Part shown: piece by piece, positions 43,980-62,413 of the stretch | Position numbering within the stretch: the first letter of the stretch is position 1 | Layout: the number at the start of each line of letters is the position of its first letter | Origin: Candidatus Nanoarchaeia archaeon | GTDB taxonomy: Archaea; Nanobdellota; Nanobdellia; Woesearchaeales; SKIA01 | Direction of reading: 5' to 3' | NCBI GenBank assembly: GCA_028279685.1 | Contig: JANQNG010000002.1 | Span: 11,922 to 75,921 of the forward strand | DNA: 64,000 nt | Program-made: the position numbers and the translations under genes | The notes under the pieces: generated by a model | What the model was told of the DNA's origin: nothing | The model's database searches: none | Seen by the model: only the letters and a program-made list of their open reading frames with translations

Positions 43980-43991
43980 TCAACATACCCC

Positions 43992-47269: not shown

Positions 47270-47308
47270 TGATTTTCTGAAAATCTTCTGGATAAATCAG
47301 GAAAATCA
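47270..47308. promoter_or_regulatory. inverted repeat TGATTTTCTGA...TCAGGAAAATCA upstream of the Lrp promoter
   Basis: Seen directly. A minus-strand TATA-like ACATATAAAG (47252-47260) lies about 30 nt upstream of the Lrp start at 47225. Confidence 0.3.
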
Positions 47309-48493
47309 TCTTCTTAGGACATATTTGTTATTTTTCGGACGAGGAGATACAATTTTCTTTTCCCCTCTTGCTGTCTTCATATACATACTTTCATTCATTT
47401 CAATGCGAGGTATTCTATTCTTATTACAATAACCGAAGTTTGCTGAATAAGCAATCCCTTCCCATGCATGAAAACTAGCATCATAATACTCTAATACAAG
47501 CTCCCATTTCTCTAATGCCTCTTGAGAAATAATCTTACTCTGTCCTTCAGGTAAACTTCCTCCTGGAAACGCAAATATATCACTAATTCTTGAAGGATCA
47601 TCAACGCAACTCTCTAATGCGTTCTTCGTCATTTCAAATTCTTTTCTGATCTGTTCAGGCGATGCATGCTCTAGTCGTACATGGTGATAAGTATGATGTC
47701 CTATATTGAACCCCATATCAAGCAGTTGATTAATCTTCATAGCACCAAATCCTTCCTGGCAAAAAGGTTCTTCATATGATCCATTGAATGCTTTATCGTT
47801 ATTAGCAAAATCTATGAAGAAAATCCCTTTCAATCCCCAATCTGGATGCTTTTTATTGAATTCCTTCATAAGAGAGACAGCACAATGTTCATCAAGCATA
47901 GGCTCTCCTGACTCCTCATAAAGAGGCTCATCTCCGTTAATGATATACTCCATCTGTCCTCTATTAGCATCATCAAAGGTTAAAAGAATTGGTCTTGTTC
48001 CTTCAGGAAGATCATAACTATTGGTGATAAACTCTTCATAACTAATTGGTCTAAATCCATATCGATAATAGGTTTCAAGATGATTCCAAAAGCTTTCCGG
48101 ACTTGTTGTGTAATTATCACCATGATGATCATCAATGACATGATACATCGGAATAGGAATGGTTGTTATGTTCGGATTGCGTTGAGATGTAATCACCATA
48201 GAAGGCGTTTTCCGATGAATAGGATCTTGTCTTAATTTCCAAGCCCATTGGAAATCAATAAATTCCTGATAATCAACAGGATTGATAGTGCAGACCACTT
48301 GCGTATCCGAGGAAGCATACAATGTAGAATCAATCATTGGACGGACAATCTCAACATAGAAAGACTTGTTGGAAAATAATTTTTCTTGAACATCGTTATT
48401 GTGAATAGTAGCATCGTGAGCAAATAAAGTTGTTGTACCTAACACAAACGCCAGTGCTGCTCCAAAGATTCCTTTTTTTATTACATTCATCAT
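47306..48493 (-). CDS. secreted polysaccharide deacetylase (NodB homology/CE4 family)
   Basis: Signal peptide; LLTFDDA (TFDDG motif), HHTYHH His motif. Confidence 0.75.
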   Translation of the reverse strand: MMNVIKKGIFGAALAFVLGTTTLFAHDATIHNNDVQEKLFSNKSFYVEIVRPMIDSTLYASSDTQVVCTINPVDYQEFIDFQWAWKLRQDPIHRKTPSMVITSQRNPNITTIPIPMYHVIDDHHGDNYTTSPESFWNHLETYYRYGFRPISYEEFITNSYDLPEGTRPILLTFDDANRGQMEYIINGDEPLYEESGEPMLDEHCAVSLMKEFNKKHPDWGLKGIFFIDFANNDKAFNGSYEEPFCQEGFGAMKINQLLDMGFNIGHHTYHHVRLEHASPEQIRKEFEMTKNALESCVDDPSRISDIFAFPGGSLPEGQSKIISQEALEKWELVLEYYDASFHAWEGIAYSANFGYCNKNRIPRIEMNESMYMKTARGEKKIVSPRPKNNKYVLRR

Positions 48494-49374
48494 AATGTAT
48501 TCACTTGAAGATATTGTTTATGTTCTATAAGCTCAGGAGGCATCCTGATACGCTCTTTCTTGTATGGTGTAAAATTAGAAGGATCTCCACTCTTTGTTCT
48601 TCTCTTCTTATAGACTTTGTTGAATTTGCTATTGAACTCAAAGATATCATCATAATATTCTTCATCGCCTGCAACTTTTTTTGCAATAGCTCTGAGCGAC
48701 TCCTTACCAGTTGCCTCATAATATTCTCGAGGAATATAATCTTCAAGCGATTTCTTTTCTCCCGAAGTAAAACTATATTGCACAACCTCTGACTTGTTTT
48801 TCACTATGTCGGAAGGGATCCTTAGTATCTGCGCTTTCTCAATCACATTAGATTTCAGTTTATTGTGATCATAGATTCTTTTCCAAAGACTTCCATCTCC
48901 TGATATTTTCTTTGCAATCATAACAAGATATTCATCAGGCTGCACAACATAGAGATGTTCTTTCCTTGCTGTGTTGATAGGAATTGCAGGTGCTATCTCT
49001 TTTGGAGAAGGCTTCTTTGTCGTTTGCATGGGAACAGTATTTTGTTTCTCTTCTTTTTTTCTCAATAAAGTATACTCTCCCTTAAGACGCTTATGCTCAT
49101 CCTTGATGCTGTCTTTCTCAGCCTTCAAACGATCATACTTTGCCTGAACTTCCTTTGCACGTTGTTTCTCAATTTGATATTCCGTCAGATAAGTCCTTGT
49201 AGTCTGTACAACTTCTTTCTCATCAAATTTATTATTGATCCATATTCCTCCTGTGACTCCTCCTGCAATCAGCAAAGCAGTCATAACTACTCTTCCAAAA
49301 CGCCTCTTTTTCTGTCTAGAACCCATCCTATTTCCAGGACTTTCATGAGGTTTATTATCTGCGAAGAATCTCAT
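48490..49374 (-). CDS. membrane-anchored LysM-domain protein with a coiled-coil
   Basis: TM helix VMTALLIAGGVTGGIWI, a coiled-coil, and LysM-like YVVQPDEYLVMIAKKISGDGSLWKRIYDHNKL...ILRIP. Confidence 0.55.
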   Translation of the reverse strand: MRFFADNKPHESPGNRMGSRQKKRRFGRVVMTALLIAGGVTGGIWINNKFDEKEVVQTTRTYLTEYQIEKQRAKEVQAKYDRLKAEKDSIKDEHKRLKGEYTLLRKKEEKQNTVPMQTTKKPSPKEIAPAIPINTARKEHLYVVQPDEYLVMIAKKISGDGSLWKRIYDHNKLKSNVIEKAQILRIPSDIVKNKSEVVQYSFTSGEKKSLEDYIPREYYEATGKESLRAIAKKVAGDEEYYDDIFEFNSKFNKVYKKRRTKSGDPSNFTPYKKERIRMPPELIEHKQYLQVNTL

Positions 49375-50627
49375 ACTACCACCTTCTCATACATAGCATC
49401 AATATGTTTACTTAGTTTCTTTTCTGTCATATTCGGTATGTTTTTTGATAGAAAAAAAGGTTTAATGTATTCTATCTCTTTTTGCAGACTACGCACTGTT
49501 TGATAAGCTGCATCAATAGTAAAACAAACATCAAACTCAGTTGAATTTCTTTCACTTTCAAAAGATTTTGACACATCACATCTAGAAAAATCATGAAAAT
49601 GCTCTTTAAAATATGCTATTTCTCTTTTCATTTTGTTATGCATCATTCCCACTTTCGAATCATAAGGTGAAGCAATAAGATAATCATTTACTGTACGAAT
49701 AAACGTTCTTAGTTTCGATATATACTGTCTGGTATTTTCTAATGCGCTTTGAAGGTCAGTACAACTGTTCTTTTGATCCTTGTATAATCTCTCTCTATAT
49801 TGTTCTGTTCGAGGATCATGAAAGTTTATTATTCTATATGCTGCTTCGAGAACTTTTTCAGCAGGATTTAATAACTCATACGAAGCACATAATTCTTGTT
49901 GTCTTTCGATGAAATCTTTAATTTCATTAACTAATACTTTACTAGTGATGTTAGATATAGATGTCTTCGCACTCATCATTCTATTATAATTCTCGCCAAG
50001 TGATGTTGATTCTGTTGTTTCCATCACAACTTCTTTTTTGGCAGAATCATCAGTAACCCATTTTACTCTTTCTAGAGATATAGATACTTTTTCCGCTCTT
50101 TTTTTGAGTAACGCAATCATGCTCTCCTCAGGACATATATTAGAAGCTATCACATCCTCAATAGTATCTTTATCAATATTATCGATGAATGCATCTATCA
50201 TCAGTATTGCTTTAAGATCATGAATATCAGAAGCGTTCTTGATAAGTGATCTGGCCATTGTACTATTAATCATACTCGAATATTGAGATCCTGCAATATG
50301 AGATTCTATATTGGAAATAGATATATTCTTTTTTCTCTTTGATAATGAATTTCCATTTCGTCTATTTGCAGCATAAGTAAATAAATCAAGAAGATGTTTG
50401 TTATTCGCAAAAAGTATATTCGAAGGTATTTTTTTTTGATCACTTATTCTCTTAAAATAATCGCAAGCGACAGCATTTCGCAGATTATGTGCTCCCACGT
50501 GGCGATGTCTTGATAATTCTGGAGCAAAATAACTTAAAAATAAAGAAGATCCGAGAGGAAGGCTATGATTTACTTCTGCTTTTCTTTCTACTGCTCCTAT
50601 AATATGTGCAATTGTCATAATCATCAC
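49371..50627 (-). CDS. hypothetical protein
   Basis: 418 aa ORF whose stop and start overlap its neighbours (operonic). Confidence 0.5.
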   Translation of the reverse strand: MMIMTIAHIIGAVERKAEVNHSLPLGSSLFLSYFAPELSRHRHVGAHNLRNAVACDYFKRISDQKKIPSNILFANNKHLLDLFTYAANRRNGNSLSKRKKNISISNIESHIAGSQYSSMINSTMARSLIKNASDIHDLKAILMIDAFIDNIDKDTIEDVIASNICPEESMIALLKKRAEKVSISLERVKWVTDDSAKKEVVMETTESTSLGENYNRMMSAKTSISNITSKVLVNEIKDFIERQQELCASYELLNPAEKVLEAAYRIINFHDPRTEQYRERLYKDQKNSCTDLQSALENTRQYISKLRTFIRTVNDYLIASPYDSKVGMMHNKMKREIAYFKEHFHDFSRCDVSKSFESERNSTEFDVCFTIDAAYQTVRSLQKEIEYIKPFFLSKNIPNMTEKKLSKHIDAMYEKVVV

Positions 50628-51334
50628 TCTTTGATTTGTAATTCAACTATGCCATTAATCTTATGTAGTGCATTAAGTCCATCTTTCTTGATATCGATAT
50701 TATGTGCATTGAATACTTCATCAACCATTGTTATTCTTTCTTTTACACTATCACATAATCCGTTCACATCACTATAAGCGGGATGAATACGAAGAAGATA
50801 GTCACACAACACCACCATGTGATGCTCTTCAGCAGAGATCTTTTCTAAGTACTTATCAAATGAAAGCTGAACATATTTGTGAATAACATTCTCTGCCATC
50901 TCCTGTTCAATTGATTTCATAGGCTGCCTTCCGCCACGCTGTACTCTTCTGATAAAATTATTGAGCTTCTTTGAGCATGATTGAGCAACATAAGCTGCCC
51001 AATAAGAGGGAGATATGTGTTGTTCCAGAAAATCATAGAGCTGCTTATCTCCATACTCCTGAGCATAGACATCAGACATGAGTAATACTGCTGTGTTCTT
51101 TGAAAAATCAATTTTATCTACATCCAAATGCTTAAGATAATATTTTGATAATAGATGTTCCTCTAATGTAAGCCCCTCTTCTGAGCACTTCTTCGTTGGT
51201 TCAGCTATAATGCCTTGTTCGAAAGATATCTTTCTTTGATAAACACCTCTAGGAATTCTTTTTCCTTTACCCTGTACTTTAATATTATGAGATCTTGCTT
51301 TCAGTAGCTGTCTTACATCAACCATAGCTTTCAC
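50624..51334 (-). CDS. hypothetical protein
   Basis: 236 aa ORF; overlaps both neighbours. Confidence 0.5.
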   Translation of the reverse strand: MKAMVDVRQLLKARSHNIKVQGKGKRIPRGVYQRKISFEQGIIAEPTKKCSEEGLTLEEHLLSKYYLKHLDVDKIDFSKNTAVLLMSDVYAQEYGDKQLYDFLEQHISPSYWAAYVAQSCSKKLNNFIRRVQRGGRQPMKSIEQEMAENVIHKYVQLSFDKYLEKISAEEHHMVVLCDYLLRIHPAYSDVNGLCDSVKERITMVDEVFNAHNIDIKKDGLNALHKINGIVELQIKE

Positions 51335-52628
51335 TCGATTTAGTTTTTTTAATACCTTTACCTGATTTTTTCGAAATCTTTCCGGATTTCTTCATAATTC
51401 GTCTAATTTTCTTCAATTTAGTTGCATGTTTTTTCTTTGCATATCTGTTCTTACTAAGAATATTTTTCAATTCATTTCTAGTATCTTTCGTTATCTCATC
51501 AAATTCCTCTTTATGCTGCTTGTAAATTTCTTTCATTGCTTCAATACGCTTATCCCATCTCCATATCCTCGTGCCTCTTTCCACATAATCACCTTTTTTT
51601 ATATCTCCGACATTACCACGATATTCTCCTGCAAGTATTTTTGAGACTATTCCAAGCACTCTCTCTCCTTTATTCTCTGACTGTTGTAATTTTTGATAAT
51701 ACTTTGTAATCAATGAACGATATCTTCTCTTTGGTATTTGTTCTTCAGAAAAGGTTTTCTCTTTCAGCACATTCTTCGTCTTAATTTTTGTTTCTAGATC
51801 ATCACCAACTTGCTTTTTTGAATCATCATCATTTTTTCCAACAACTTGATATTCTCCCAGTCTTTTTCCATCTCTACCAATAATCACTCTTTCTTTCAAT
51901 TGAGTCACAATATCTTCTTTTTCCTCATCATCTGGAGTAAAATGACCTTCTTCTATGATATTCAAAGGAATATGTTCATAGCGATTTCTTATTGCTATTC
52001 TCTCTCCTTCTTGAATTTGAGGATACGCTATATTCATTGTCGCATATGGTGTGTCATTATGTTGGTTCATCACAAGACCGTAAGTATACTCAAGATAATA
52101 TTGTTCGCCATCCTCCTGCTCAACAGGAATATCTTTGAACATCCTATAATCAGTAAGAAAATTTTCAAATGTTCTGACATCCCTGCCAGAGAAAAAATTA
52201 GAAAATTTTCCATGAGAATGAGCCCATCCTGCAATTCGTTTATTGAGATTATGTTTAATATCTCTCTCTGATGTAATAGCACCTCCCCCTGATATTGTAC
52301 AATATCCTGGATAGACCGTCTGATCATGTGCAATATACGCATCATTGATAACAGGTTTTCCTTCTCTAACTGTATCTTTCTCCGCAAGAAGATAAATTGC
52401 CATTTCATGCGAAGGTAAATGAGCCTCTTGAGTTATATTCCCAAATGCACTAATAATATGTTCAAGTTTTTCTTTCGCATAAGCTGTTATATTAATTCCT
52501 TCAGCAGCAAAAGCATTAGCATGCTCTCTTATTTCAGCATTTTCCTCATCAACAGTAGTATATCCAAGCATTATTTCACCTTCTTGCATTACGTTCAACA
52601 TAGATTCGTTGAGGTAATTCCGTAGCAT
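51318..52628 (-). CDS. JAB/MPN (JAMM) metalloprotease-domain protein with a long C-terminal extension and Lys-rich tail
   Basis: Complete JAMM motif: E (SHEMAIYLL) ... HSHGKFSNFFSGRD (HxHx7Sx2D). The C-terminus is KKKHATKLKKIRRIMKKSGKISKKSGKGIKK. Confidence 0.75.
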   Translation of the reverse strand: MLRNYLNESMLNVMQEGEIMLGYTTVDEENAEIREHANAFAAEGINITAYAKEKLEHIISAFGNITQEAHLPSHEMAIYLLAEKDTVREGKPVINDAYIAHDQTVYPGYCTISGGGAITSERDIKHNLNKRIAGWAHSHGKFSNFFSGRDVRTFENFLTDYRMFKDIPVEQEDGEQYYLEYTYGLVMNQHNDTPYATMNIAYPQIQEGERIAIRNRYEHIPLNIIEEGHFTPDDEEKEDIVTQLKERVIIGRDGKRLGEYQVVGKNDDDSKKQVGDDLETKIKTKNVLKEKTFSEEQIPKRRYRSLITKYYQKLQQSENKGERVLGIVSKILAGEYRGNVGDIKKGDYVERGTRIWRWDKRIEAMKEIYKQHKEEFDEITKDTRNELKNILSKNRYAKKKHATKLKKIRRIMKKSGKISKKSGKGIKKTKSSESYG

Positions 52629-54057
52629 AACTCATAGGACCATCAATGACATTTTTCATTGAATTATAATCAAGTACATGAATCATCTCTCCAACCATGG
52701 CTGCAGCGATAATTTCATTAGACATTACTACACTAGGATTAGGACCATCGCAAATATTTCCCCCTTCTGGAAAACCTTCAAGATCTAGTTGATCTCCTAT
52801 TGAAGAAGTTACACCAGGTATATAGACAGCAACTTGCCCTGCTTTTGGATGTGTTCCTCCATCTATATAAGGTACGTTGTGTTTTTTAGTGAATGTATTC
52901 ATCCAAATTCTTGCATGCTTATTATCTACACATCCAAGCACCACATCATATTGCTTTTTAGTAAGTTCCTTTTCAGAAATTAATTTTATATTCTCTCTCT
53001 TATCTTCTCTAGAAAGCACATCTCCTAATTTTCCATTATAGACATCTGATTTTATCTTATGATCTATATTGCGAACACGCATAGAAAGCACTTCAGCCTT
53101 ATTGTGTCCGATGAAATTTCTCAATTCTGTCTGTCTATTAAGATTTTTGTGTTCTGCAACATCATAATCAACAAAATCAATCCTGCCAATTCCAAGATAG
53201 CGTAAATAAATCGAAGCCCAATTTCCTAATGCTCCCGCACCAACCACCAGCACATTATTCTTTCTATAAGTCGGAAGATTATTCTTTCTTAGATTAGATT
53301 TTAATCCTTTTCTATTCTTACTATATAAGTTATAGATAAGACGATGATTACTTGGAAGATGAGCATCATCATCGTTATACTTAAATGCATATTTCCTCAC
53401 TTCTTCAACAGCTATACCAGAAACAATTCCACTTGTAAAGCCTCCTTGATCCTTTCCATTGAATTCCTCATGTACAAGAGCATCAAGATCAGGATTCTCT
53501 TTAAGCACATTTACTCTTCCTTTATTCTTTGGCCAATAGCAAGCAATAGCGCTTCTATCTTCATCTGATGATAACGAAATAACAGGTATAGGGTTGTTCT
53601 TTCTCCTAAATGCGTAGCGAAGCACTTTTTCTTTCGAAACAACTTCATTTGTAGCATCGATAAGTATATCTGGGTTAAACCCCATGATAAACGCTTCAGC
53701 AAATCTACCATGTCTTTTGATCGTTGGAGGTGTATGGTCAATTTGATGTAATGCCTCAAAAACCATATCACTCTGCTTTTTTCCTGCAATTTTTTCTCTC
53801 TTTCCATAGAGAAATCCTTTGTCTTTTGAAGTAACTGAACGTGAATTATCAAAATAATAAATATTCCTAACACCTAAACCATAAAGTGATGCAAGCACCA
53901 TTTGCCCAAGCAAATTAGTACCCACTACAGCCACTTTTAGCTTATTTACCATCTCCTGCCTTTCATTACCCAGCATACCATCTCCGAATGCAACACTATT
54001 ACAAACATGAATTTCAGAAACCGCATCTACGTCACCCATTCGCATCGACCCCCACAA
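52576..54057 (-). CDS. E1-like (ThiF/MoeB/UBA-family) activating enzyme with two tandem Rossmann/adenylation-like domains
   Basis: The C-terminal active-type domain has VLVVGAGALGNWASIYLRYLGIGRIDFVDYDVAEHKNLNRQ. The N-terminal degenerate domain has VAVVGTNLLGQMVLASLYGLGVRNIYYFDN. Its start overlaps the upstream JAB gene. Confidence 0.75.
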   Translation of the reverse strand: MWGSMRMGDVDAVSEIHVCNSVAFGDGMLGNERQEMVNKLKVAVVGTNLLGQMVLASLYGLGVRNIYYFDNSRSVTSKDKGFLYGKREKIAGKKQSDMVFEALHQIDHTPPTIKRHGRFAEAFIMGFNPDILIDATNEVVSKEKVLRYAFRRKNNPIPVISLSSDEDRSAIACYWPKNKGRVNVLKENPDLDALVHEEFNGKDQGGFTSGIVSGIAVEEVRKYAFKYNDDDAHLPSNHRLIYNLYSKNRKGLKSNLRKNNLPTYRKNNVLVVGAGALGNWASIYLRYLGIGRIDFVDYDVAEHKNLNRQTELRNFIGHNKAEVLSMRVRNIDHKIKSDVYNGKLGDVLSREDKRENIKLISEKELTKKQYDVVLGCVDNKHARIWMNTFTKKHNVPYIDGGTHPKAGQVAVYIPGVTSSIGDQLDLEGFPEGGNICDGPNPSVVMSNEIIAAAMVGEMIHVLDYNSMKNVIDGPMSYATELPQRIYVERNARR

Positions 54058-55388
54058 CCATTATTGTAATATTCTCTTTCATATGTTTTGATAAGATTTA
54101 GCATAGACTCACAAACATCTCTTTTCTGCTCGAGTTTCTTAATTCCGATCACCCAACCAGGAAATACATTATTACTTATCCTTCCATTAATCAAATCATG
54201 AACATCATCAATATATTTTTTCTTTGGCACTAATACATCTAATAATTCATTGAATCTTGTATCAAGAATTGAAGTCTGTTTATTGCGGTGGTCTTTATCA
54301 GACATAATGACGGTTTGTGCATCACATATAACACCATAGACTTCCTCTATTGGATTAAAAGAATTAACCCCTTTGATATTATTAAAATTATGAGAAACAA
54401 TATTTGTTGCTTCATGAATTCTTTTATAGATCGAGTCATAAGTACTATTAAAAAAATCTAATTGTTTTTTCTTATGAGAATTTGTCTTTGCAAATTTATC
54501 TTCTTCTACATACAACGTTCTTTCTCTATTGAAAATTCCTGCTGGAATACCTTTTTTCTTGACCAGATTTTTATCTCTAGTAACAATTATGCGTTCTCTA
54601 ATCTGATTGACCCTTGATTTAATCTGCTGATCAATATCTTCTGTTTTAATACAAGGCACTTGCTCTTCTTCGATCTCTTCAAAAGGAACATTTTCAATTA
54701 GTGTAATTCCATTTCCCTTAGAGTAGCCAATTACTGTAAATGGCCTATCATTATCAGCATTGAATACCATTCCATATGTGTATTGCACCTCTGCAGAACC
54801 GTAAGACATAACTGTTAAAGGATGATTCTTTACCTTCTTAAGATCGAACTTATCAAAAAAACTGGAACGAACCATCTTCTGTTTATTTGGTTCCACTTGA
54901 AGATACGTTTTCCCCTTGTGTTTTACAAAACGCACATCGTCTTCTTTTTCAGTTTCTTGCATTTCAACATCAAGAAACATCTTATTGTCTTCGAGAAAAT
55001 AATTGAATGTTTTTCTATCTCTTTTTGAAAAGAAAGTGGAAATATCCCCATGCGAATGCCCCCATCCAACAACACGCATTCTTAGATTATTCTTGATATC
55101 CCTCATAGAAGTAATCAACCCATCACCTGATATAATACAATAATCAGGATACGCCTCTTGATCATGGGCAATATAGACATCACTAATAAGAGGTCTGTTC
55201 TTTTTTGCTTCTTCTTTTGTAGCAAGCATCAAAAATCCTATCTCATATGTTGGCAGACTTAAAGAAGAACAAATTGCTTTCACTCTTCGTGCAATAAGCT
55301 CACTTTTCATTTTTGCACGAGAAGTAATCCTGATAGGCGAGATCATGCTTTCAATCTTTTTATCTAATGTTGTCTCCCTCATTTTCAA
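54027..55388 (-). CDS. JAB/MPN (JAMM) metalloprotease-domain protein, paralog of 51318..52628
   Basis: VVGWGHSHGDISTFFSKRD is a perfect HxHx7Sx2D. It shares the context DVYIAHDQEAYPDYCIISGDG with DAYIAHDQTVYPGYCTISGGG in the paralog. Confidence 0.75.
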   Translation of the reverse strand: MKMRETTLDKKIESMISPIRITSRAKMKSELIARRVKAICSSLSLPTYEIGFLMLATKEEAKKNRPLISDVYIAHDQEAYPDYCIISGDGLITSMRDIKNNLRMRVVGWGHSHGDISTFFSKRDRKTFNYFLEDNKMFLDVEMQETEKEDDVRFVKHKGKTYLQVEPNKQKMVRSSFFDKFDLKKVKNHPLTVMSYGSAEVQYTYGMVFNADNDRPFTVIGYSKGNGITLIENVPFEEIEEEQVPCIKTEDIDQQIKSRVNQIRERIIVTRDKNLVKKKGIPAGIFNRERTLYVEEDKFAKTNSHKKKQLDFFNSTYDSIYKRIHEATNIVSHNFNNIKGVNSFNPIEEVYGVICDAQTVIMSDKDHRNKQTSILDTRFNELLDVLVPKKKYIDDVHDLINGRISNNVFPGWVIGIKKLEQKRDVCESMLNLIKTYEREYYNNGCGGRCEWVT

Positions 55389-56695
55389 TTCTTAAAGATT
55401 CTTTCCTCAGATATACCATGTTTTTTTGCATAGTCTTTTGCATCATCCTCATTTAACGCAATAGGAGTATAATTAGAGATGCTATGCACAGGAGTCAGCG
55501 TATTACCAATATATCCTGTTGTAATATTTCCTGTTGCTTCCCAGAGCATAAGTGCAACTCTTCGTGCTAATCCTTTATCTTTTATAGAATACTTATGAAG
55601 AAACTTAACATTAAGGTAAGACCATCTTTCCGCACCTGCAAAACAAATTCTTCCACTTGGATAGACAAAAGGATGATTATATGGCATATCACGTAATGTC
55701 GGCTCATTCTTAATAGTAACATATCTATCAGTAATATCTAGTGTTGTACCTACTCGAACACGTTTACTTCCTTCTTTTCCTTCTTCATTGAATGCATAAT
55801 ATTTCCCATCCTTCTCAAGCAAATAAGGCTCAATCTCTGCATAGAACAAATACTCATTATTGCCTCTAGGTTCATATCTTATATTACCTACTTTCTTTCG
55901 AGTTTTTTTTACTTTTTTTTTAGAAATATTTGCATCAATTTCTTTTTCTTTTTTATACAATAATAAAATTTGATTCTTAAATTTTTTACCATGTTGCAAC
56001 GCAACTTGTTCTACATCTGCACGAAGACGCAATCTATATTCATCTGCTAGCTTCTGAAGAGGCATTAATGGCTTAAGCGAATAATCTGTTCCTTTGAATG
56101 TTAAAGTTCCGTTTCTTCTAGCTTTAGAAGAAATAAGTTCATAACATGTACCAGCAATAGTCACAATACCTGGACGAGGAATTAAATCATAAATACGCGT
56201 TTCTATGTTATGTAAGTCATCTAATGCAGGATAACTATTTATTGCTGTATCGATCTTAGGATCTTCAATAACAACTTCCTTCTTTTTTTCTCTTTGATAA
56301 TTATAAATCTTAAAAACATCTTGAATAAACCTATCAAGAGATTGCTCTTTCATAGAACCATAGTAATTTATTTTTTTCGAAACTTGTGAGGATAGTTCTT
56401 TGAGTCTTCTAATAAGTTTAAAATCAATAACCCAACTCATATACTCCTTAAGATCATCTTCATTATCTTTGAATAATTCTCTCTGAAAAAGAGAAAGCTC
56501 ATCAGACTCAAAGAGAGGATATTGCTCCTTAAGATATTTCCATGCATTACCATTTGCTGAAGGAGTATTCCTTTCAATAGTATAGATACGAGAATCTAAC
56601 AACGCAAATGTTTCTCCAGACATCATGAACTTATCTAATATTGTTGGAGCTAAACAAATCTCTTTTTTCATAATACCCCCTCTACAAAAAAGCAC
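55385..56695 (-). CDS. large protein with a C-terminal ubiquitin-conjugating-enzyme (E2/UBC)-like domain
   Basis: MPYNHPFVYPSGRICFAGAERWSY matches the UBC active-site signature HPN[IV]xxxGxIC[LF]xxLxxxW, including the catalytic Cys. The N-terminal ~300 aa has no assignable domain. Confidence 0.5.
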   Translation of the reverse strand: MLFCRGGIMKKEICLAPTILDKFMMSGETFALLDSRIYTIERNTPSANGNAWKYLKEQYPLFESDELSLFQRELFKDNEDDLKEYMSWVIDFKLIRRLKELSSQVSKKINYYGSMKEQSLDRFIQDVFKIYNYQREKKKEVVIEDPKIDTAINSYPALDDLHNIETRIYDLIPRPGIVTIAGTCYELISSKARRNGTLTFKGTDYSLKPLMPLQKLADEYRLRLRADVEQVALQHGKKFKNQILLLYKKEKEIDANISKKKVKKTRKKVGNIRYEPRGNNEYLFYAEIEPYLLEKDGKYYAFNEEGKEGSKRVRVGTTLDITDRYVTIKNEPTLRDMPYNHPFVYPSGRICFAGAERWSYLNVKFLHKYSIKDKGLARRVALMLWEATGNITTGYIGNTLTPVHSISNYTPIALNEDDAKDYAKKHGISEERIFKN

Positions 56696-56704
56696 ATAAC
56701 ATGC

Positions 56705-57184
56705 CTAATCACAGAGCTTGTCCTCAAGGTTCACATACGCTGATGTTCCTCCAGGCACACTTCTTCTGGCAATAAAATCAATCAATTTATACTTCTCTTT
56801 AGCGTTGGTTTCAGAATCAATTTCTTCCTTTGTTCTAATAATCGAATCATATTCAGCAACTCGACCATCTAAATCCAAAGGTATTGGTTCTCCATTATCA
56901 ACTATTGCCTTGATCGAGACCTTGTAGTTATCAGGATCCGCATTCATATCTCTGAACCATTTACTCACTGTATTTGCTACATCTCTTTCTTCCGCATTGT
57001 ACGCTTCATTCAATGCATCTGCTTCTGGATCGATAAGTTTTCTAATCAAATCCTCCACAGTTCCTTCAAGATAAGTCTGTTCAACTTTCTTCACCAGTAA
57101 GACACCCTCATCATTGTCCTTTATCGGGACCATAGCATCAAGAGTGACATATATTGGCTTGTCATCCATAATATCAACCTCCAA
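56705..57184 (-). CDS. small acidic protein; candidate ubiquitin-like modifier precursor (internal Gly-Gly followed by a 13-aa tail)
   Basis: The ORF is robust: 159 aa, the first gene after a hairpin+T8 element, immediately upstream of the E2-like gene. The Ubl call itself is inferential. It rests on the ...ARRSVPGG|TSAYVNLEDKLCD C-terminus and beta-strand-like segments (KPIYVTL, YKVSIKAIV). Confidence 0.3.
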   Translation of the reverse strand: MEVDIMDDKPIYVTLDAMVPIKDNDEGVLLVKKVEQTYLEGTVEDLIRKLIDPEADALNEAYNAEERDVANTVSKWFRDMNADPDNYKVSIKAIVDNGEPIPLDLDGRVAEYDSIIRTKEEIDSETNAKEKYKLIDFIARRSVPGGTSAYVNLEDKLCD

Positions 57185-57228: not shown

Positions 57229-57264
57229 AAAAAAAACCGCAAAATTTCCGTCGAGAAACGGAAG
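57229..57264 (-). terminator. hairpin CTTCCG-N8-CGGAAA followed by T8 on the minus strand, directly after the ATP-grasp stop codon
   Basis: Plus strand reads A8-CCG-CAAAAT-TTCCG-TCGAGAAA-CGGAAG; the TAA stop of 57267..58211 abuts it. Confidence 0.45.
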
Positions 57265-57266
57265 AA

Positions 57267-58211
57267 TTACATTCTATATTTCTTTCCTTGTGCAATATGC
57301 ATTAAGCGTCTTCCTATGAGTCTATTGAAATCATGCATATTCTCAAAATCAGGATGATCAAAGAATTTCCGGTCAATAACTCCGTATCTCCCATCACAAT
57401 CACATTCAATCACATAATTGTTTCTCTCGTGATCCTGTACAATATCAACCACACCAATATCAAATCCAACAGCATCTGCAGCCTGCAAAGCAATCCTCCT
57501 GAGATCTTCTGATGGCTCCATAAACACATAATGCGCTCCTCTAGCGATATTGATAATAGCTTCGCCAGGAGTATTAACATGTTCCTTTTCTCGTATGGTT
57601 CCAAAAGGCACCTCGTCTCCTAGCACATACATTCTCAATACACTTTTGTTAAAATCCCCATTATCTCCTATATATTCTTGCAGAAGATAAGGAGCAGCAA
57701 TAACAGAATCACCTATCTCAACATATCTTTCCTTTTCTACAATATCATATTTTCCTTCGTTATTATAAGCTACATAATTACCATGCTCCTTCATCAATAC
57801 AAAATGCTTATTTCCTGCACAATCATAAGGATACTTCAGCATAGCAATATCTCTTGTACTCATGAAAACATCTATCGCCCTCTTATTAGAGCAAAGCTCA
57901 AAGAAAGGATGGGAAATGTTGTTCTTCTTGAATAACTCATTAGATTTTATTTTATTCATGGCAATCTCTTGAGCACTATATGCGTTTATAATGGGCGTCC
58001 TCTGAGACCACCTCTCAAAATCGAATTTTGGACCGTGCATCATCATATAAGCAACATCATATCCTTCTAGCAGTTCTACATTCCCTTCTGTAAGACGATC
58101 ACATACAAACCCTTCCCTACGTATAGTCTGCTGAAGAGGCTCTACAAAATGTACATCATAATACGTATCTTTCCCCGCAATAATAGCAAATTTCAAACTG
58201 ATCCCCTCCAT
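57267..58211 (-). CDS. ATP-grasp amidoligase (RimK/glutathione-synthetase-like)
   Basis: MLKYPYDCAGNKHFVLMKEHGNY, LLQEYIGDNG...LRMYVLGDEV, and VGFDIGVVDIV...YVIECDCDG (ATP-grasp C-terminal VLEVN-type motif). Confidence 0.6.
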   Translation of the reverse strand: MEGISLKFAIIAGKDTYYDVHFVEPLQQTIRREGFVCDRLTEGNVELLEGYDVAYMMMHGPKFDFERWSQRTPIINAYSAQEIAMNKIKSNELFKKNNISHPFFELCSNKRAIDVFMSTRDIAMLKYPYDCAGNKHFVLMKEHGNYVAYNNEGKYDIVEKERYVEIGDSVIAAPYLLQEYIGDNGDFNKSVLRMYVLGDEVPFGTIREKEHVNTPGEAIINIARGAHYVFMEPSEDLRRIALQAADAVGFDIGVVDIVQDHERNNYVIECDCDGRYGVIDRKFFDHPDFENMHDFNRLIGRRLMHIAQGKKYRM

Positions 58212-58852
58212 TCTTCATACCAATGACTCGCCTCTCCATCAAGCAATACTTTTACTTCTTTATGTTTGACATCATACGTGTGATAAGCAGGATCAATAAA
58301 AAGATCTCCTGGTTCAAGATCAACCCAAGCACATGCGTGTTTTACATTTCTTCCAAAACAATCTACTTTTACACTAGTGTAATGACTTGTTAATCCTACT
58401 GTTCTTGCCATAACAACATACAAGTAAGCCATCTCTCCACAAACACCTTCACGATCACGCATTACCTCTTCTGCATTCTTATATCCATTGGTTCTCATTG
58501 ATTTTCCATAATCTATATTATTCTGCATCCAATCAAAAATACTTCTTGCTTTCTCTTGTAATGTAGAAAGTTGTATTACTTCTTTCTTTAGAAAGTTAGC
58601 AGCATTCACAGGCATGCCAAAAGGACTCTGTATGGTATCATCAACAATAAGCACTCTGTAATTACTGTTGATCTTGCTTAAGTCAAGAGTAGTATCTATC
58701 TGTTTCCTTTTCTTGAGCTTAAACCGAATATGAGATGTATCATCACAATAAGGATTAACCTGCGTTCTTCTTTTTTTCAGCGATTCTCTGATAGTACTAT
58801 CATTGTGCATTCTTCCATGAAGCTTTCGCTTAATAAGTACATTAAGAGTCAT
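58193..58852 (-). CDS. transglutaminase-like cysteine peptidase-fold protein
   Basis: GVCGEMAYLYVVMARTVGL (catalytic Cys context of the transglutaminase-like core), with downstream His/Asp candidates (HACAWVDLEPGDLFIDP). Confidence 0.6.
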   Translation of the reverse strand: MTLNVLIKRKLHGRMHNDSTIRESLKKRRTQVNPYCDDTSHIRFKLKKRKQIDTTLDLSKINSNYRVLIVDDTIQSPFGMPVNAANFLKKEVIQLSTLQEKARSIFDWMQNNIDYGKSMRTNGYKNAEEVMRDREGVCGEMAYLYVVMARTVGLTSHYTSVKVDCFGRNVKHACAWVDLEPGDLFIDPAYHTYDVKHKEVKVLLDGEASHWYEEWRGSV

Positions 58853-58861
58853 ATATTCTCC

Positions 58862-59923
58862 TCATGAAAGATATCTCATCGAATCTGTGAGATTTGCTCT
58901 CTGGACATCTCCTAAGAGCTGTGCCATCACAGCATTCTGTCTATCAGCAGCATCTAACCCTGGATGTGACTGTATAGTATCTCTTATATTTTCCAATGCG
59001 GAACTATAGCTCGCATTAAGATCGTCCTGATATTGTTGGAGCATACCAATACCTGTTGAAACTATACTCATCATATCTGAAAGTTCTACAACAGGCTCTA
59101 CTGATCCTGCAAGATCATCAAGATGTTCTTGATAAAATGAAGTGAGTGTTGACATTCTCTGTGCACCTTCAATAACAGCAGCAAATAATCGTTCAGAGAG
59201 CCATATATTCCAAATACGCTGCCTAATATGAGTAACGCTCATCGCTGAATTAAAAAACTCTCCTGTCGTATCACTTTTCTCTCTCACTACTTTCATATAT
59301 TGTTGAAGCGCATCACTATGTTTTTCGGGATCAGCATCCGGATCCAACCCTTGTAACGTTTCCTGAAGCGATTTCTCATTATACACTTGTTTAGGAACTT
59401 CCTCTTCAAGAAATTTTTTTCTCAAAGTCTCATCTCTGTTTTCAGGAATAAGCGTATCTAATGTTCCTTTTACCTCATCAAGCTTGCTTGAATATGACTC
59501 AACCATCGAATCAAGAATTGAATTTAATTGTCGCACTCTTTCCTGCTGTTCAGGGAAAATTTGATGTAAATCACGGCGATTTATGGGTTGTCTTACTATT
59601 TTATCAGCAAAATAATATTTAACATCAAGCATAGTTTTTTTCAATGGTCTTGCTTCTCTGTATTCAACATATCTTTCAAGTTCTTGCTGTCCTTTATCTA
59701 TCCCTTTAATAATATAATTAACATCTTCCATTCGAGGATTAACATTAACTGCTGTTGAACCCCCTAAGTAAGGGAGCACATCAGTTCTTGTTCGACCTAT
59801 TCTCATAGGATCTCCTGTCTGATTTCTTGGACTTGTTTGCGTTCTTGTTGTAAGAGAATTATCTTTTGTATTAACAACTACTTTTCTTCTTAATTTAAGA
59901 CTATCTTTTATTGAATCGACCAT
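58862..59923 (-). CDS. hypothetical alpha-helical acidic protein (possible Alpha-E-like partner of ATP-grasp/TGase systems)
   Basis: 353 aa from the first ATG (the ORF track starts at GTG 59932). It leads the three-gene group and is preceded by a TATA-like ATATAAAA and an AAAGGTGG ribosome-binding site. Confidence 0.45.
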   Translation of the reverse strand: MVDSIKDSLKLRRKVVVNTKDNSLTTRTQTSPRNQTGDPMRIGRTRTDVLPYLGGSTAVNVNPRMEDVNYIIKGIDKGQQELERYVEYREARPLKKTMLDVKYYFADKIVRQPINRRDLHQIFPEQQERVRQLNSILDSMVESYSSKLDEVKGTLDTLIPENRDETLRKKFLEEEVPKQVYNEKSLQETLQGLDPDADPEKHSDALQQYMKVVREKSDTTGEFFNSAMSVTHIRQRIWNIWLSERLFAAVIEGAQRMSTLTSFYQEHLDDLAGSVEPVVELSDMMSIVSTGIGMLQQYQDDLNASYSSALENIRDTIQSHPGLDAADRQNAVMAQLLGDVQRANLTDSMRYLS

Positions 59924-59989
59924 AGCAACCACCTTTTATTTAAATTAAACATAATATCAACGATCAAAACTATTTTATATGTCTTCGCT

Positions 59990-60024
59990 AAAAAAAACCG
60001 AAACAATTCCGACAGTGATCGGAA
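59990..60024 (-). terminator. hairpin TTCCGA-CAGTGA-TCGGAA adjacent to an A8/T8 run
   Basis: Seen directly. On the minus strand the order is hairpin, then T8, then the BRE/TATA of the next gene. Confidence 0.45.
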
Positions 60025-61377: not shown

Positions 61378-61400
61378 AAAAAAAATCGGAAGAATTCCGA
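61378..61400 (-). terminator. A8/T8 run plus hairpin TCGGAA-GA-ATTCCGA, ~20 nt downstream of the 61419..61760 stop
   Basis: Seen directly. Confidence 0.45.
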
Positions 61401-62395: not shown

Positions 62396-62413
62396 TTCCG
62401 GTGTAGACCGGAA
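62396..62413. promoter_or_regulatory. palindrome TTCCGG-TGTAGA-CCGGAA (extended AATATTCCGG...CCGGAAATAT) in the divergent region between two Lrp-family genes
   Basis: Seen directly; it lies about 70 nt upstream of the 61847..62329 start. Confidence 0.4.

What the first reader, a model, noticed from the sequence alone, without database searches (positions are those of the whole stretch)
51318..57184. Operon encoding an E1 - E2-like - 2xJAB/JAMM - candidate Ubl set: a ubiquitin-type conjugation system in a DPANN-like archaeon
Five consecutive minus-strand genes with overlapping stops and starts encode the components of a ubiquitin-type conjugation system. They are a tandem-domain E1 (52576..54057), a protein ending in a UBC-like HPFVYPSGRICF active-site motif (55385..56695), two paralogous JAMM metalloproteases with the complete E...HxHx7Sx2D signature (51318..52628; 54027..55388), and a small acidic protein whose C-terminus carries GG followed by a 13-residue tail (56705..57184). 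This component set matches eukaryotic Ub systems, the Caldiarchaeum/Asgard Ub operons, and bacterial Bil/CBASS-Cap2-Cap3/Bub-type operons. Its architecture is unusual in three ways: the JAB is duplicated, the E2 is a 436-aa fusion, and the E1 is pseudo-dimeric. Two uncharacterised proteins and a secreted LysM plus CE4 deacetylase pair sit in the same operon. The whole locus could be either a housekeeping protein-tagging system or a defence or symbiosis module.
Basis: partly seen in the sequence, partly recalled or inferred. Interest (0 to 1): 0.9.

Follow-up and report, generated by a model that had tools for sequence, protein, structure and literature searches.

The report
Ubiquitin-like tagging operon in DPANN archaeon
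A tiny-genome (DPANN/Woesearchaeota-type) archaeon carries a conserved gene cluster that looks like a complete ubiquitin-style protein-tagging machine (activating enzyme, a previously uncatalogued conjugating-enzyme family, two trimming proteases and a tag precursor), laid out like the bacterial anti-virus 'Bil' systems.

Summary
Five tightly packed minus-strand genes (51318-57184) encode: a two-domain ThiF/E1 (Pfam 1.7e-42), two paralogous JAMM proteases (E...HxHx7SxxD invariant in 12/12 relatives; profile hits BRCC36/Rpn11), a 428-aa protein whose C-terminal ~175 aa carry a Y-x-HPFV-x5-8-IC signature (Cys in 135/152 family representatives) that aligns specifically, but only weakly, with the UBC HPN-Cys loop, and a 154-aa acidic protein ending in VPGG plus a variable, unconserved tail. 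The order Ubl-E2-(JAB)-E1-JAB is kept in every one of about nine divergent lineages I could recover, all metagenomic; the two named genomes are Woesearchaeota and Nanoarchaeota. The E2-like family (231 representatives) has no Pfam, NCBIfam, PADLOC or PDB sequence match. Best reading: a Bil-like E1-E2-Ubl-DUB conjugation cascade, a new archaeal variant of a known kind. The beta-grasp fold of the tag and the UBC fold of the E2 remain unproven (AF2 pLDDT 37 and 67). Biological role (defence versus regulation) is inferred only.

The parts
56705..57184 (-). Candidate ubiquitin-like modifier precursor (probable start ATG 57169, 154 aa, pI 4.4). Gly-Gly at residues 140-141 of the 154-aa form (codons about 56747-56752), followed by a 13-residue tail.
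   Evidence: Terminal Gly kept in >=90% of 10 divergent homologues, VPGG in most; tails of 1-28 aa are unconserved. Always immediately upstream of the E2-like gene. Fold unproven: AF2 pLDDT 37.5, no PDB sequence hit, hhalign to a validated Ub profile E 0.006 against controls 0.07-0.84.
55385..56695 (-). E2-like protein (probable start ATG 56671, 428 aa). N-terminal ~250-aa domain of unknown fold (E2N) plus C-terminal ~175-aa UBC-like domain (E2C) with Y339-x-H341-P-F-V...I350-C351 (motif at 55643-55675).
54027..55388 (-). JAB-A: JAMM/MPN+ metalloprotease (Glu49, H111-S-H113-x7-S121-xx-D124; motif at 55017-55058) with a beta-rich insert and a helical C-terminal region.
   Evidence: Motif invariant in 12/12 aligned homologues. 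Profile vs PDB: BRCC36 6e-4, Rpn11 1.6e-3, Caldiarchaeum Rpn11-like 3e-3, AMSH-LP. Pfam JAB and Prok-JAB only 17-18 bits, below cut-off. Present only in the two-JAB ('type 1') loci.
52576..54057 (-). E1: single-chain tandem ThiF. The N-terminal domain has a degenerate nucleotide loop (VGTNLLG, res 45; inactive adenylation domain). The C-terminal domain is an active adenylation domain (GAGALGN 273, NLNRQ 305, DNKHAR 378). Candidate catalytic Cys436 lies in the crossover loop (codon 52750-52752).
   Evidence: Pfam ThiF 1.7e-42, 2 stretches. Alignment of 8 homologues with a Cys just before (D/N)PSVVMSN in 8/8. Profile vs PDB: UBA3 1.2e-21, UBA1 1.3e-21, SAE2, MoeB 4e-20; single sequence best UBA5 1e-11.
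51318..52628 (-). JAB-B: second JAMM/MPN+ metalloprotease (Glu75, H137-S-H139-x7-S147-xx-D150; motif at 52179-52220) with a conserved helical C-terminal domain and a Lys-rich tail.
   Evidence: The single JAB of 'type 2' loci (L006, L013, L016) is JAB-B-like, so this is the core protease.
58862..59932 (-). X356: conserved protein of unknown function (probable start ATG 59923), first gene of the upstream unit.
   Evidence: Homologues in L001, L003-L005, L007, L009 and L012 next to the transglutaminase gene or close to the Ubl operon. No Pfam or PDB match.
58193..58852 (-). Transglutaminase-like (papain-fold) cysteine protease/transglutaminase with Cys138, His172, Asp187.
   Evidence: Pfam Transglut_core 3.4e-13. 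PDB 3isr, putative cysteine protease, 4.7e-6. Conserved beside the system in L001-4, L009-10, L012, L014-15.
57267..58211 (-). RimK-type ATP-grasp ligase, the lineage-specific occupant of a variable slot between the transglutaminase and Ubl genes.
   Evidence: Pfam RimK 5.6e-10, NCBIfam rimK_fam 4e-12. No homologue in related loci; the slot holds a vWA-like protein in L001/L005/L007 (VWA_2 2.4e-5; 38% identical to each other) or a short E2C paralogue plus a 262-aa protein in L014.
57231..57263 (-). Palindrome TTCCG-N8-CGGAA plus T-tract, between the ATP-grasp stop and the Ubl promoter-like/SD region. A twin copy lies at 59992-60024 upstream of X356.
   Evidence: Two exact pattern matches against 0 expected. 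Same palindrome about 95 nt upstream of Ubl in L013 and L008. Function (terminator or operator) not tested.
47306..51334 (-). Downstream same-strand neighbours: unknown 236-aa (50624-51334) and 418-aa (49371-50627) proteins, a membrane-anchored LysM-like protein (48490-49374) and a CE4 polysaccharide deacetylase (47306-48493). Probably not part of the conserved system.
   Evidence: No homologues beside the system in other loci, except the first ~60 aa of the 418-aa protein in L007. Pfam: Polysacc_deac_1 1.3e-10; LysM 19.4 bits, just below cut-off.
61847..62329 (-). Lrp/AsnC-family regulator upstream of the cluster (paralogue at 46791-47225 downstream). Candidate regulator.
   Evidence: Pfam HTH_24 and AsnC_trans_reg. 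36-41% identical homologue directly upstream of the system in L001, L003 and L004.

Best explanation
The locus encodes a ubiquitin-like protein-conjugation cascade of the Bil type (Ubl-E2-DUB-E1 order) in a DPANN archaeon. Proposed steps, all inferred unless marked otherwise:
(1) The 154-aa acidic precursor is trimmed after Gly141 by one of the two JAMM proteases, which exposes a C-terminal Gly-Gly.
(2) The single-chain E1 binds it. Its degenerate N-terminal ThiF domain plays the role of the second protomer. The C-terminal domain adenylates the Gly carboxylate and passes it to the conserved crossover-loop Cys436.
(3) The tag is transferred to Cys351 of the UBC-like C-terminal domain of the E2-like protein.
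(4) With no E3 in the cluster, the ~250-aa N-terminal domain of the E2 probably selects targets, and the tag is attached to lysines.
(5) The second JAMM protease reverses the modification.
Shown from sequence and conservation: the identity of the E1 and of the JAMM active sites, the invariant Cys/His signature of the E2-like family, the conserved terminal Gly with a disposable tail, and the strict synteny.
A separately transcribed, co-conserved unit (X356, a transglutaminase-like Cys protease, and a variable ATP-grasp, vWA or short-E2 gene) most likely supplies an accessory sensor, effector or substrate function.
The patchy distribution and the swappable accessory slot favour an accessory conflict or stress system (for example antiviral, as for Bil) over a housekeeping one. 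This role has lower confidence (about 0.4).
For: E1: Pfam ThiF 1.7e-42 with two stretches; intact GxGxxG, NLNRQ and DN..AR only in domain 2, and a Cys before DPSVVMSN in 8/8 homologues; the profile hits UBA3, UBA1 and SAE2 at about 1e-21.
JAMM: E...HxHx7SxxD invariant in 12/12; profile hits are BRCC36, Rpn11, archaeal Rpn11-like and AMSH.
Ubl: conserved C-terminal (P)GG followed by a variable tail in 9 of 10 homologues.
Synteny: Ubl-E2-(JAB)-E1-JAB in every recovered locus.
The gene order and the IAD-AAD E1 match the published Bil operons (PMC10557695, PMC11601596), in which the JAB protease pre-processes the Ubl.
No rhodanese or biosynthetic genes are present in the cluster.
Against: No curated model (UQ_con, Prok-E2, ubiquitin, ThiS) reaches threshold for the E2-like or Ubl proteins.
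The canonical HPN Asn is replaced by an invariant Phe.
The Ubl model failed (pLDDT 37.5). Its similarity to ubiquitin is marginal (E 0.006, Prob 6%), and at 141 aa it is twice the size of a beta-grasp.
The E1 lacks the large mobile CYS domain of BilD and of eukaryotic E1s.
No thioester or conjugate has been demonstrated, and nothing here identifies targets.
Nothing links this particular locus to viruses or defence islands, and PADLOC hits only the E1.
Confidence: 0.7

Rival explanations
1. The biochemical cascade is the same, but its role is housekeeping or regulatory: proteostasis, proteasome targeting, or regulation of surface or host-interaction proteins in the DPANN cell. It is not a conflict or defence system.
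For: The locus sits in a chromosomal region with AspRS, ArgRS, SecDF and Nre, and its GC content matches the rest of the window. No relatives turned up in IMG/VR or GenBank phages. No PADLOC hit except the generic E1. It is flanked by Lrp/AsnC regulators and three Ser/Thr kinases. The JAMM profile is closest to Rpn11- and BRCC36-type DUBs.
Against: The distribution is very sparse: 2 hits in one-genome-per-species GTDB contigs by pattern scan, and only 7 proteins in the 5.8-billion-cluster word-indexed search. Sequence divergence is fast. There are two architectures and an accessory slot whose content changes between close relatives. L016 is flanked by toxin-antitoxin-like DUF6036, DUF5680 and PIN genes. 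All of these are typical of accessory or conflict systems.
Confidence: 0.3
2. E2-independent tagging, as in archaeal SAMP/UbaA or TtuB. The E1 alone activates and conjugates the tag. The 'E2-like' protein is a non-catalytic adaptor or an unrelated enzyme whose HP...C motif resembles UBC only by convergence.
For: Known archaeal Ubl systems outside Aigarchaeota and Asgard work without an E2 (PMC4895103, PMC4443979). All UBC evidence here is sub-threshold. The HPN Asn is missing.
Against: Cys351 and His341 are conserved in about 90% of 152 representatives. The gene is invariably wedged between the Ubl and the E1/JAB genes. Control profiles do not give the UBC hit. NCBIfam SAMP-E1 scores 55 bits against a cut-off of 450.
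Confidence: 0.12
3. A biosynthetic or sulfur-transfer module (ThiS/MoaD-, MccB-, PaaA- or QbsCDE-like). The E1 adenylates the C-terminus of a carrier or precursor peptide for thiocarboxylation or for peptide natural-product formation. The JAB proteases only mature the carrier.
For: The E1 profile also hits MoeB (4e-20), MccB (8e-19), ThiF and PaaA. JAB plus E1 plus a small GG protein occurs in siderophore and cofactor pathways (PMC1779556). An ATP-grasp ligase and a transglutaminase-like enzyme are adjacent.
Against: There is no rhodanese, cysteine desulfurase, MoaE/ThiG or other pathway enzyme in any of the loci. The carrier is 141 aa and acidic, not ThiS- or MoaD-like. Two DUB-type JAMMs and a conserved Cys-bearing UBC-like protein are unnecessary for sulfur transfer. 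The ATP-grasp is not conserved.
Confidence: 0.06

Closest known systems
Bacterial BilABCD (Bil, Type I and II; antiphage Ubl conjugation)
   Same: Gene order Ubl-E2-JAB(DUB)-E1. [quoted passage not shown] JAB expected to pre-process a Ubl that carries a C-terminal extension. No E3 gene. A divergent E2 that library UBC models do not detect (PMC10557695, PMC11601596).
   Different: Archaeal (DPANN) host. An extra JAB after the E1, or in type-2 loci a single JAB placed after the E1. No large CYS-domain insertion in the E1. The E2 carries a 250-aa N-terminal domain and an HPFV...IC signature (Type II BilB is 'CEHH'). The Ubl is 141 aa with no detectable similarity. A co-conserved X356, transglutaminase and vWA/ATP-grasp unit is present. 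None of the PDB hits carried a Bil name. Direct comparison with Bil sequences was not possible.
Caldiarchaeum subterraneum / Asgard eukaryote-like ubiquitin operons
   Same: Archaeal operon with Ubl, E1, E2 and an Rpn11-like JAMM that processes the pro-Ubl. The JAMM profile here hits the Caldiarchaeum Rpn11-like structure 6fjv at 3e-3 (PMC5654768, PMC3082918).
   Different: Those systems have a bona fide ubiquitin, a canonical UBC E2 and a small RING E3, all detectable by standard models. Here no RING was found, and neither the E2 nor the Ubl passes any library model.
Bacterial Bub (6E/DUF6527) operons
   Same: Ubl plus E1, E2 and JAB domains in one operon. The E1 domain matches at about 26% identity (L018, L019).
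   Different: Bub uses Ubl-E2 and JAB-E1 fusions, a DUF6527 serine protease and oxyester (Ser) intermediates (PMC11601596). Here the proteins are separate, Cys residues are conserved, there is no DUF6527, and this family's JAB, E2 and Ubl HMMs do not hit the Bub proteins.
Archaeal SAMP/UbaA/HvJAMM1 sampylation
   Same: Archaeal, with a ThiF-type E1, a GG-ended small modifier and a JAMM protease.
   Different: Sampylation has no E2, uses a single-domain homodimeric E1 and ThiS/MoaD-type modifiers, and is linked to sulfur transfer. NCBIfam SAMP-E1 scores only 55 bits against a cut-off of 450. A separate single-domain ThiF at 8391-9041 may be this genome's housekeeping E1.
UBA5-UFC1 (UFM1) pair
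   Same: The best single-sequence PDB hit of the E1 is UBA5 (1e-11), which also uses a crossover-loop Cys without a CYS domain. The top Foldseek hits of the E2 model are UFC1.
   Different: The Foldseek hits are not significant (E 0.25). UBA5 is a homodimer without an inactive domain. No UFM1-like protein was detected.

Membership tests
ThiF/E1 adenylyltransferase superfamily | Match to the ThiF Rossmann-like adenylation domain above the curated threshold | tested here: met
   PF00899 145.7 bits against a cut-off of 28.1, two stretches.
ThiF/E1 adenylyltransferase superfamily | Intact ATP-binding and adenylation motifs (GxGxxG, NxNRQ, DN..aR) and a candidate catalytic Cys | tested here: met
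   GAGALGN 273, NLNRQ 305, DNKHAR 378 and Cys436 in the crossover loop, conserved in 8/8 homologues. Activity itself is not testable here.
Bil-type / canonical E1 (IAD-AAD-CYS) | Tandem inactive plus active adenylation domains in one chain | tested here: met
   The N-terminal domain has a degenerate loop (VGTNLLG) and lacks NLNRQ; the C-terminal domain is intact.
Bil-type / canonical E1 (IAD-AAD-CYS) | Mobile helical CYS-domain insertion carrying the catalytic cysteine | tested here: not met
   There is no large insertion between the PG.T strand and DPSVVMSN. The conserved Cys lies in a short crossover loop, as in UBA5 and MoeB-type E1s.
UBC/E2 superfamily | Match to UQ_con, Prok-E2 or another curated E2 model at threshold | tested here: not met
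   No Pfam, NCBIfam or PADLOC hit for the window protein or for 48 family members.
UBC/E2 superfamily | HPN...Cys active-site loop (His-Pro-Asn, Cys about 10 residues downstream) | tested here: inconclusive
   H341-P-F...C351 has the same spacing of 10 and aligns with the UBC loop (HMM vs PDB E 0.17-1.7; hhalign E 2.2e-4 with clean controls). However, the Asn is replaced by an invariant Phe.
UBC/E2 superfamily | UBC alpha/beta fold (beta-meander, Cys loop, crossover helix) | tested here: inconclusive
JAMM/MPN+ metalloproteases | E...HxHx7SxxD zinc-binding and catalytic motif | tested here: met
   Present in both window paralogues and invariant in 12/12 homologues.
JAMM/MPN+ metalloproteases | Significant profile similarity to known JAMM domains | tested here: met
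   Family profile vs PDB: BRCC36 6.3e-4, Rpn11 1.6e-3, further Rpn11, AMSH and CSN5 hits. Single-sequence Pfam scores are below the gathering cut-off (17-18 against 22.5-25 bits).
Ubiquitin-like (beta-grasp) modifiers | C-terminal Gly(-Gly), optionally followed by a cleavable extension | tested here: met
   VPGG plus tails of 1-28 unconserved residues; the final Gly is kept in >=90% of 10 homologues.
Ubiquitin-like (beta-grasp) modifiers | Beta-grasp fold | tested here: inconclusive
   AF2 failed (pLDDT 37.5). No PDB or Pfam hit. hhalign of residues 82-139 to a validated Ub profile gives E 0.006, Prob 6%, against controls 0.07-0.84.
BilABCD operons | Operon order Ubl-E2-JAB-E1 | tested here: met
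   Window and all type-1 loci: Ubl-E2-JAB-A-E1, followed by an extra JAB-B (order as given in PMC10557695).
BilABCD operons | Sequence homology of each component to the BilA-D families; antiphage function | not testable with these tools
   No Bil HMMs or sequences are available here. The PDB profile searches returned no Bil-named chains. Function needs experiment.
Bub (6E/DUF6527) operons | DUF6527 serine protease and Ubl-E2 / JAB-E1 fusions using Ser (oxyester) catalysis | tested here: not met
   No DUF6527 hit. The proteins are separate and Cys residues are conserved. The Bub loci L018 and L019 match only through the E1 domain.
Caldiarchaeum/Asgard ubiquitin operons | Canonical ubiquitin, a UBC E2 and a RING E3 detectable by standard models | tested here: not met
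   No ubiquitin, UQ_con or RING/zf hits in any ORF from 46.8 to 62.3 kb.
CBASS Cap2/Cap3 | E1-E2 fusion with a CD-NTase and an effector | tested here: not met
   PADLOC Cap2 models match only the E1 adenylation core (E about 1e-13, residues 265-353). There is no CD-NTase.

The most novel reading that the evidence does not exclude
This is a lineage of E2-dependent ubiquitin-like conjugation, apparently centred on DPANN archaea, that has not been catalogued. It has its own E2 family (HPFV...IC, usually fused to a 250-aa putative target-recognition domain) and its own 141-aa, possibly two-domain modifier. It is coupled to a transglutaminase-like protease and swappable vWA, ATP-grasp or short-E2 modules. 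It evolved separately from the Aigarchaeota/Asgard ubiquitin operon and is related only distantly to bacterial Bil. It may act as an archaeal antiviral or host-interaction tagging system.
Probability: 0.35. Interest if true: 0.8.

Novelty: new variant of a known kind. Interest (0 to 1): 0.66.

Why it matters
E2-dependent ubiquitin-like conjugation was long thought to be confined, among archaea, to Aigarchaeota and Asgard lineages. In bacteria it has only recently been shown to be a family of antiviral systems (Bil, Bub, CBASS-Cap2).

A conserved, complete E1-E2-Ubl-DUB operon in genome-reduced DPANN archaea matters for three reasons:
- It would extend this biochemistry to a third archaeal group.
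- It would add an E2 family and a modifier family that no current library recognises.
- It would give a compact, experimentally tractable set of five soluble proteins for testing how E3-less E2s choose targets.

It also bears on whether ubiquitin-type cascades were spread by horizontal transfer of conflict systems before eukaryogenesis. The co-conserved transglutaminase-like protease and vWA/ATP-grasp modules hint at additional, unexplored chemistry attached to Ubl tagging.

Tried and rejected
- Pfam, NCBIfam, PADLOC and PDB sequence searches gave nothing for the E2-like and Ubl proteins.
- The AF2 model of the Ubl, built from a 2-sequence alignment, was unusable (pLDDT 37.5).
- The afdb50 fold library was unavailable.
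- The word-indexed homologue searches returned only 4, 2 and 7 proteins. The exhaustive representative search was needed to see the 231-member family.
- Pattern scans of metagenome and genome contigs were limited by poor peptide conservation, giving 3 and 2 loci. Two alignments were rejected as too divergent.
- There are no relatives in IMG/VR or GenBank phages.
- An exact look-up of the window's own E2 gave no contig record, and cluster look-up gave no names.
- I tested whether the E2 N-terminal domain is a degenerate UBC/UEV repeat. hhalign found no similarity to E2C or to UBC (E 0.097 and 0.65), so this idea is unsupported.
- X356 has no PDB or Pfam similarity.
- A plasmid tblastn with the E1, run in the hope of finding Bil operons for direct comparison, returned only ThiF/MoeB genes and Bub operons.
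- Literature searches for a DPANN or Woesearchaeota ubiquitin-like system found nothing specific. This library is incomplete, so prior description cannot be excluded.

Full report
**1. Observation**

They are tightly packed. The ORFs of JAB-B/E1 and E1/JAB-A overlap, JAB-A overlaps the E2-like gene by 4 nt, and the Ubl and E2 genes are 9-33 nt apart depending on the start chosen. Database entries identical to the window proteins and their homologues indicate real starts at ATG 57169 (Ubl, 154 aa, preceded by GGAGGT) and ATG 56671 (E2-like, 428 aa). The quoted motifs are all present:
- HPFVYPSGRIC at residues 341-351 of the 436-aa ORF
- HSHGDISTFFSKRD in JAB-A and HSHGKFSNFFSGRD in JAB-B, with upstream Glu49 and Glu75
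- VPGG followed by 13 residues in an acidic (pI 4.4) protein

**2. Host and setting**

The window carries housekeeping genes (AspRS, ArgRS, SecD/F, a P-type ATPase) and the archaea-specific Nre protein. GC content is uniform at 0.32-0.38. No tRNA or Rfam element was found. The only named genomes that encode relatives of the E2-like protein are a Candidatus Woesearchaeota MAG and a Nanoarchaeota MAG. A DPANN archaeal chromosome is therefore the best reading.

**3. E1**

The 493-aa protein hits Pfam ThiF at 1.7e-42 with two stretches. In an alignment of eight homologues:
- The N-terminal domain has a degenerate glycine loop and lacks the NLNRQ and DN..AR motifs, so it is an inactive adenylation domain.
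- The C-terminal domain keeps GAGALGN, NLNRQ and DNKHAR.
- A cysteine (Cys436) just before (D/N)PSVVMSN is present in all eight.
- There is no large CYS-domain insertion.
- The window protein has lost the Zn CxxC pairs that some relatives keep.

The family profile hits UBA3, UBA1 and SAE2 at about 1e-21 and MoeB at 4e-20. The single sequence hits UBA5 best.

**4. JAMM proteases**

Single-sequence Pfam scores are below threshold (17-18 bits). However, the E...HxHx7SxxD motif is invariant in 12/12 divergent homologues. The family profile retrieves BRCC36 (6e-4), Rpn11 (1.6e-3), the Caldiarchaeum Rpn11-like protein (3e-3), AMSH-LP and CSN5. JAB-A and JAB-B are paralogues, 36% identical over 262 aa. 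JAB-A carries a beta-rich insert. JAB-B carries a conserved helical C-terminal domain and is the type found in single-JAB loci.

**5. E2-like protein**

No Pfam, NCBIfam, PADLOC or PDB sequence match exists for it or for 48 family members.

Family size and signature:
- An exhaustive profile search found 231 representatives at E<=1e-3. Most are 420-440 aa. Many are 200-250 aa and match only the C-terminal ~175 residues.
- In 152 aligned representatives, Tyr339, His341, Pro342, Phe343 and Cys351 are conserved in 130-139 sequences.

Evidence for a UBC relationship is convergent, but each line is weak:
- (a) The His-to-Cys spacing (10) equals that of the UBC HPN...C.
- (b) The family profile against PDB gives 13 sub-threshold hits. 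Eight are E2 enzymes, all aligned on PP.V...HPN...G.IC (E 0.17-1.7).
- (c) hhalign against a UBC profile gives E 2.2e-4, Prob 45%. I built that profile and validated it (274 PDB E2 chains at <=1e-20). Eight unrelated profiles from this locus, the reversed E2C profile and the E2 N-terminal domain give E 0.15-0.74.
- (e) Foldseek's top hits are UFC1 and other E2s, but at E 0.25-1.7.

The canonical Asn is replaced by an invariant Phe. I therefore call this a probable, divergent UBC-like E2, not a member of a curated E2 family. The N-terminal ~250 residues (E2N) show no similarity to E2C or to UBC.

**6. Ubl candidate**

Homologues keep a C-terminal Gly (>=90%), mostly as VPGG. It is followed by 1-28 unconserved residues. 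This is the pattern of Ubl precursors that need proteolytic maturation. The fold is unproven:
- AF2 on a 2-sequence alignment failed (pLDDT 37.5).
- There are no PDB or Pfam hits.
- hhalign aligns residues 82-139 with ubiquitin 1-76 at E 0.006, Prob 6%, against 0.07-0.84 for controls.

A compact C-terminal beta-grasp preceded by an ~80-residue domain is plausible but untested.

**7. Synteny**

I fetched 17 related loci: 16 carry the system or part of it (L015 holds only the accessory genes). I scanned all their ORFs with HMMs built from the window proteins. Every locus with enough flank shows Ubl -> E2(N+C) -> [JAB-A] -> E1 -> JAB-B.
- Type 1 (window, L001-5, L007, L009-11, L014) has two JABs.
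- Type 2 (L006, L013, L016; L008 and L017 are truncated) has Ubl-E2-E1-JAB.

E2 identity among these lineages falls to 24-28%, so the linkage is ancient and under selection.

Type 1 loci also carry an upstream unit: X356 (unknown), a transglutaminase-like cysteine protease (Pfam 3.4e-13; Cys138/His172/Asp187; PDB 3isr 4.7e-6), and a variable slot. The slot holds:
- a RimK-type ATP-grasp in the window (5.6e-10)
- a vWA-like protein in L001, L005 and L007
- a short E2C paralogue plus a 262-aa protein in L014; a short E2C alone in L012

The downstream 236-aa and 418-aa proteins, the LysM-like protein (19.4 bits against a cut-off of 20.9) and the CE4 deacetylase (1.3e-10) have no counterparts next to the system elsewhere. 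The one exception is the first ~60 residues of the 418-aa protein, which recur in L007.

**8. Transcription-unit hints**

The motif TTCCG-N8-CGGAA plus a T-tract occurs exactly twice in the window against 0 expected. One copy lies between the ATP-grasp stop and the Ubl gene, the other just upstream of X356. Each is followed by an A/T-rich box and a GGAGG-type ribosome-binding site. The same palindrome lies about 95 nt upstream of the Ubl gene in the distant loci L013 and L008, and degenerate copies occur in L001, L009 and L010. This suggests two units with a shared terminator- or operator-like element. An Lrp/AsnC regulator is conserved upstream in the window and in L001, L003 and L004.

**9. 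Mechanism (inferred)**

1. A JAMM protease trims the precursor after Gly141.
2. The IAD-AAD E1 adenylates Gly141 and forms a thioester on Cys436.
3. The tag transfers to Cys351 of the E2-like protein.
4. The E2's N-terminal domain selects targets, since no E3 is encoded.
5. The other JAMM reverses the modification.

This follows the experimentally established logic of Bil systems, where BilC pre-processes BilA and BilD/BilB conjugate it to lysines without an E3 (PMC10557695; operon description in PMC11601596). It also follows the Caldiarchaeum system (PMC5654768). None of these steps was or can be shown here.

The biological role is open. Sparse distribution, rapid divergence, two architectures, a swappable accessory slot and toxin-antitoxin-like neighbours in L016 favour an accessory conflict or stress system. 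The chromosomal housekeeping context, the absence from viral collections and the lack of defence-library hits leave a regulatory role open.

**10. Comparison and novelty**

- **Bil:** closest in design (same gene order, IAD-AAD E1, E3-less, divergent E2). This system differs in host domain, the extra or relocated JAB, the absence of a CYS domain, the E2 architecture and signature, the Ubl size and the accessory unit.
- **Bub:** excluded. There is no DUF6527, no fusions, and Cys rather than Ser; the Bub loci L018 and L019 match only in the E1 core.
- **CBASS Cap2/3:** excluded. There is no CD-NTase and no E1-E2 fusion.
- **SAMP:** excluded. An E2-like protein is present, and the E1 is far below the SAMP-E1 cut-off.
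- **Caldiarchaeum/Asgard type:** excluded. No canonical Ub, UBC or RING was found.

I found no paper describing such a system in DPANN, but the searchable library is incomplete. Verdict: a real, conserved, probably functional Ubl-conjugation operon, and a new archaeal variant of a known kind. Its E2-like and modifier families are absent from the Pfam, NCBIfam and PADLOC releases and PDB sequences searched here.

Noticed in passing
window 57231-57263 (-) and 59992-60024 (-); also 62396-62413, 61386-61400; L013 981-997; L008 2469-2485: A palindrome TTCCG-N8-CGGAA followed by a T-tract precedes both transcription units of the locus (2 exact matches against 0 expected). It recurs about 95 nt upstream of the Ubl gene in distant type-2 loci. 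A decamer TGAATGATTA about 45 nt upstream of the Ubl ATG is shared by the window and L013/L008. It could be a terminator, or an operator for the flanking Lrp/AsnC regulators.
   Followed up: partly
L012 2241-2981; L014 736-1413; L015 717-1394: Stand-alone short paralogues (225-246 aa) of the UBC-like C-terminal domain sit directly after the transglutaminase-like gene. In L014 they occur in addition to the full-length E2-like gene, which suggests a second E2-type activity tied to the transglutaminase.
   Followed up: partly
L001 15229-15684 (also L002 7414-7869): A second paralogue of the Ubl candidate (37% identical) follows JAB-B but lacks the C-terminal Gly-Gly. It may be a non-conjugatable decoy or partner.
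   Followed up: no
L001 8308-9072; L005 1602-2387; L007 3050-3907: The slot that holds the ATP-grasp gene in the window is occupied by a vWA-like protein in the nearest relatives (Pfam VWA_2 2.4e-5, just below cut-off). The accessory module is therefore exchanged between close lineages.
   Followed up: partly
L007 4530-5777 and 5778-6311: In the Woesearchaeota MAG Meg19_1012_Bin_325 the E2-like gene appears as two adjacent ORFs (415 aa and 177 aa) that both match the C-terminal domain. This is a frameshift or partial duplication, or an assembly artefact.
   Followed up: no
window 8391-9041 (-), with 7266-8366 (-) and 9157-10362 (+): A second, single-domain ThiF/MoeB-type E1 (Pfam 1.2e-32) lies next to a radical-SAM gene and the archaeal Nre gene. 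It may be the housekeeping sulfur-carrier or SAMP-type E1 of this genome.
   Followed up: no
window 39544-46694 (-): Three consecutive large Ser/Thr protein-kinase genes (879, 599 and 900 aa) lie just downstream on the same strand. The last carries weak, sub-threshold PKD/Ig-like matches C-terminal to its kinase domain. This is unusual density for a small-genome archaeon.
   Followed up: no
window 62570-63595 (+), 61847-62329 (-), 46791-47225 (-): Three Lrp/AsnC-type regulators bracket the locus, one of them a duplicated (two-HTH) 341-aa form.
   Followed up: no
L016 8889-12177: A type-2 locus is followed by DUF6036, DUF5680 and PIN_9 genes (toxin-antitoxin-like) and preceded by a run of small ORFs. 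This looks like a mobile or defence-island context.
   Followed up: no
L018 and L019 (Rhizobiaceae plasmids NZ_CP034911.1, NZ_CP049218.1): Bub-type operons turned up with the E1 query, next to UvrD-like helicases: a multiubiquitin-domain protein, a JAB-E1 fusion annotated only as 'ThiF family adenylyltransferase', and DUF6527.
   Followed up: partly
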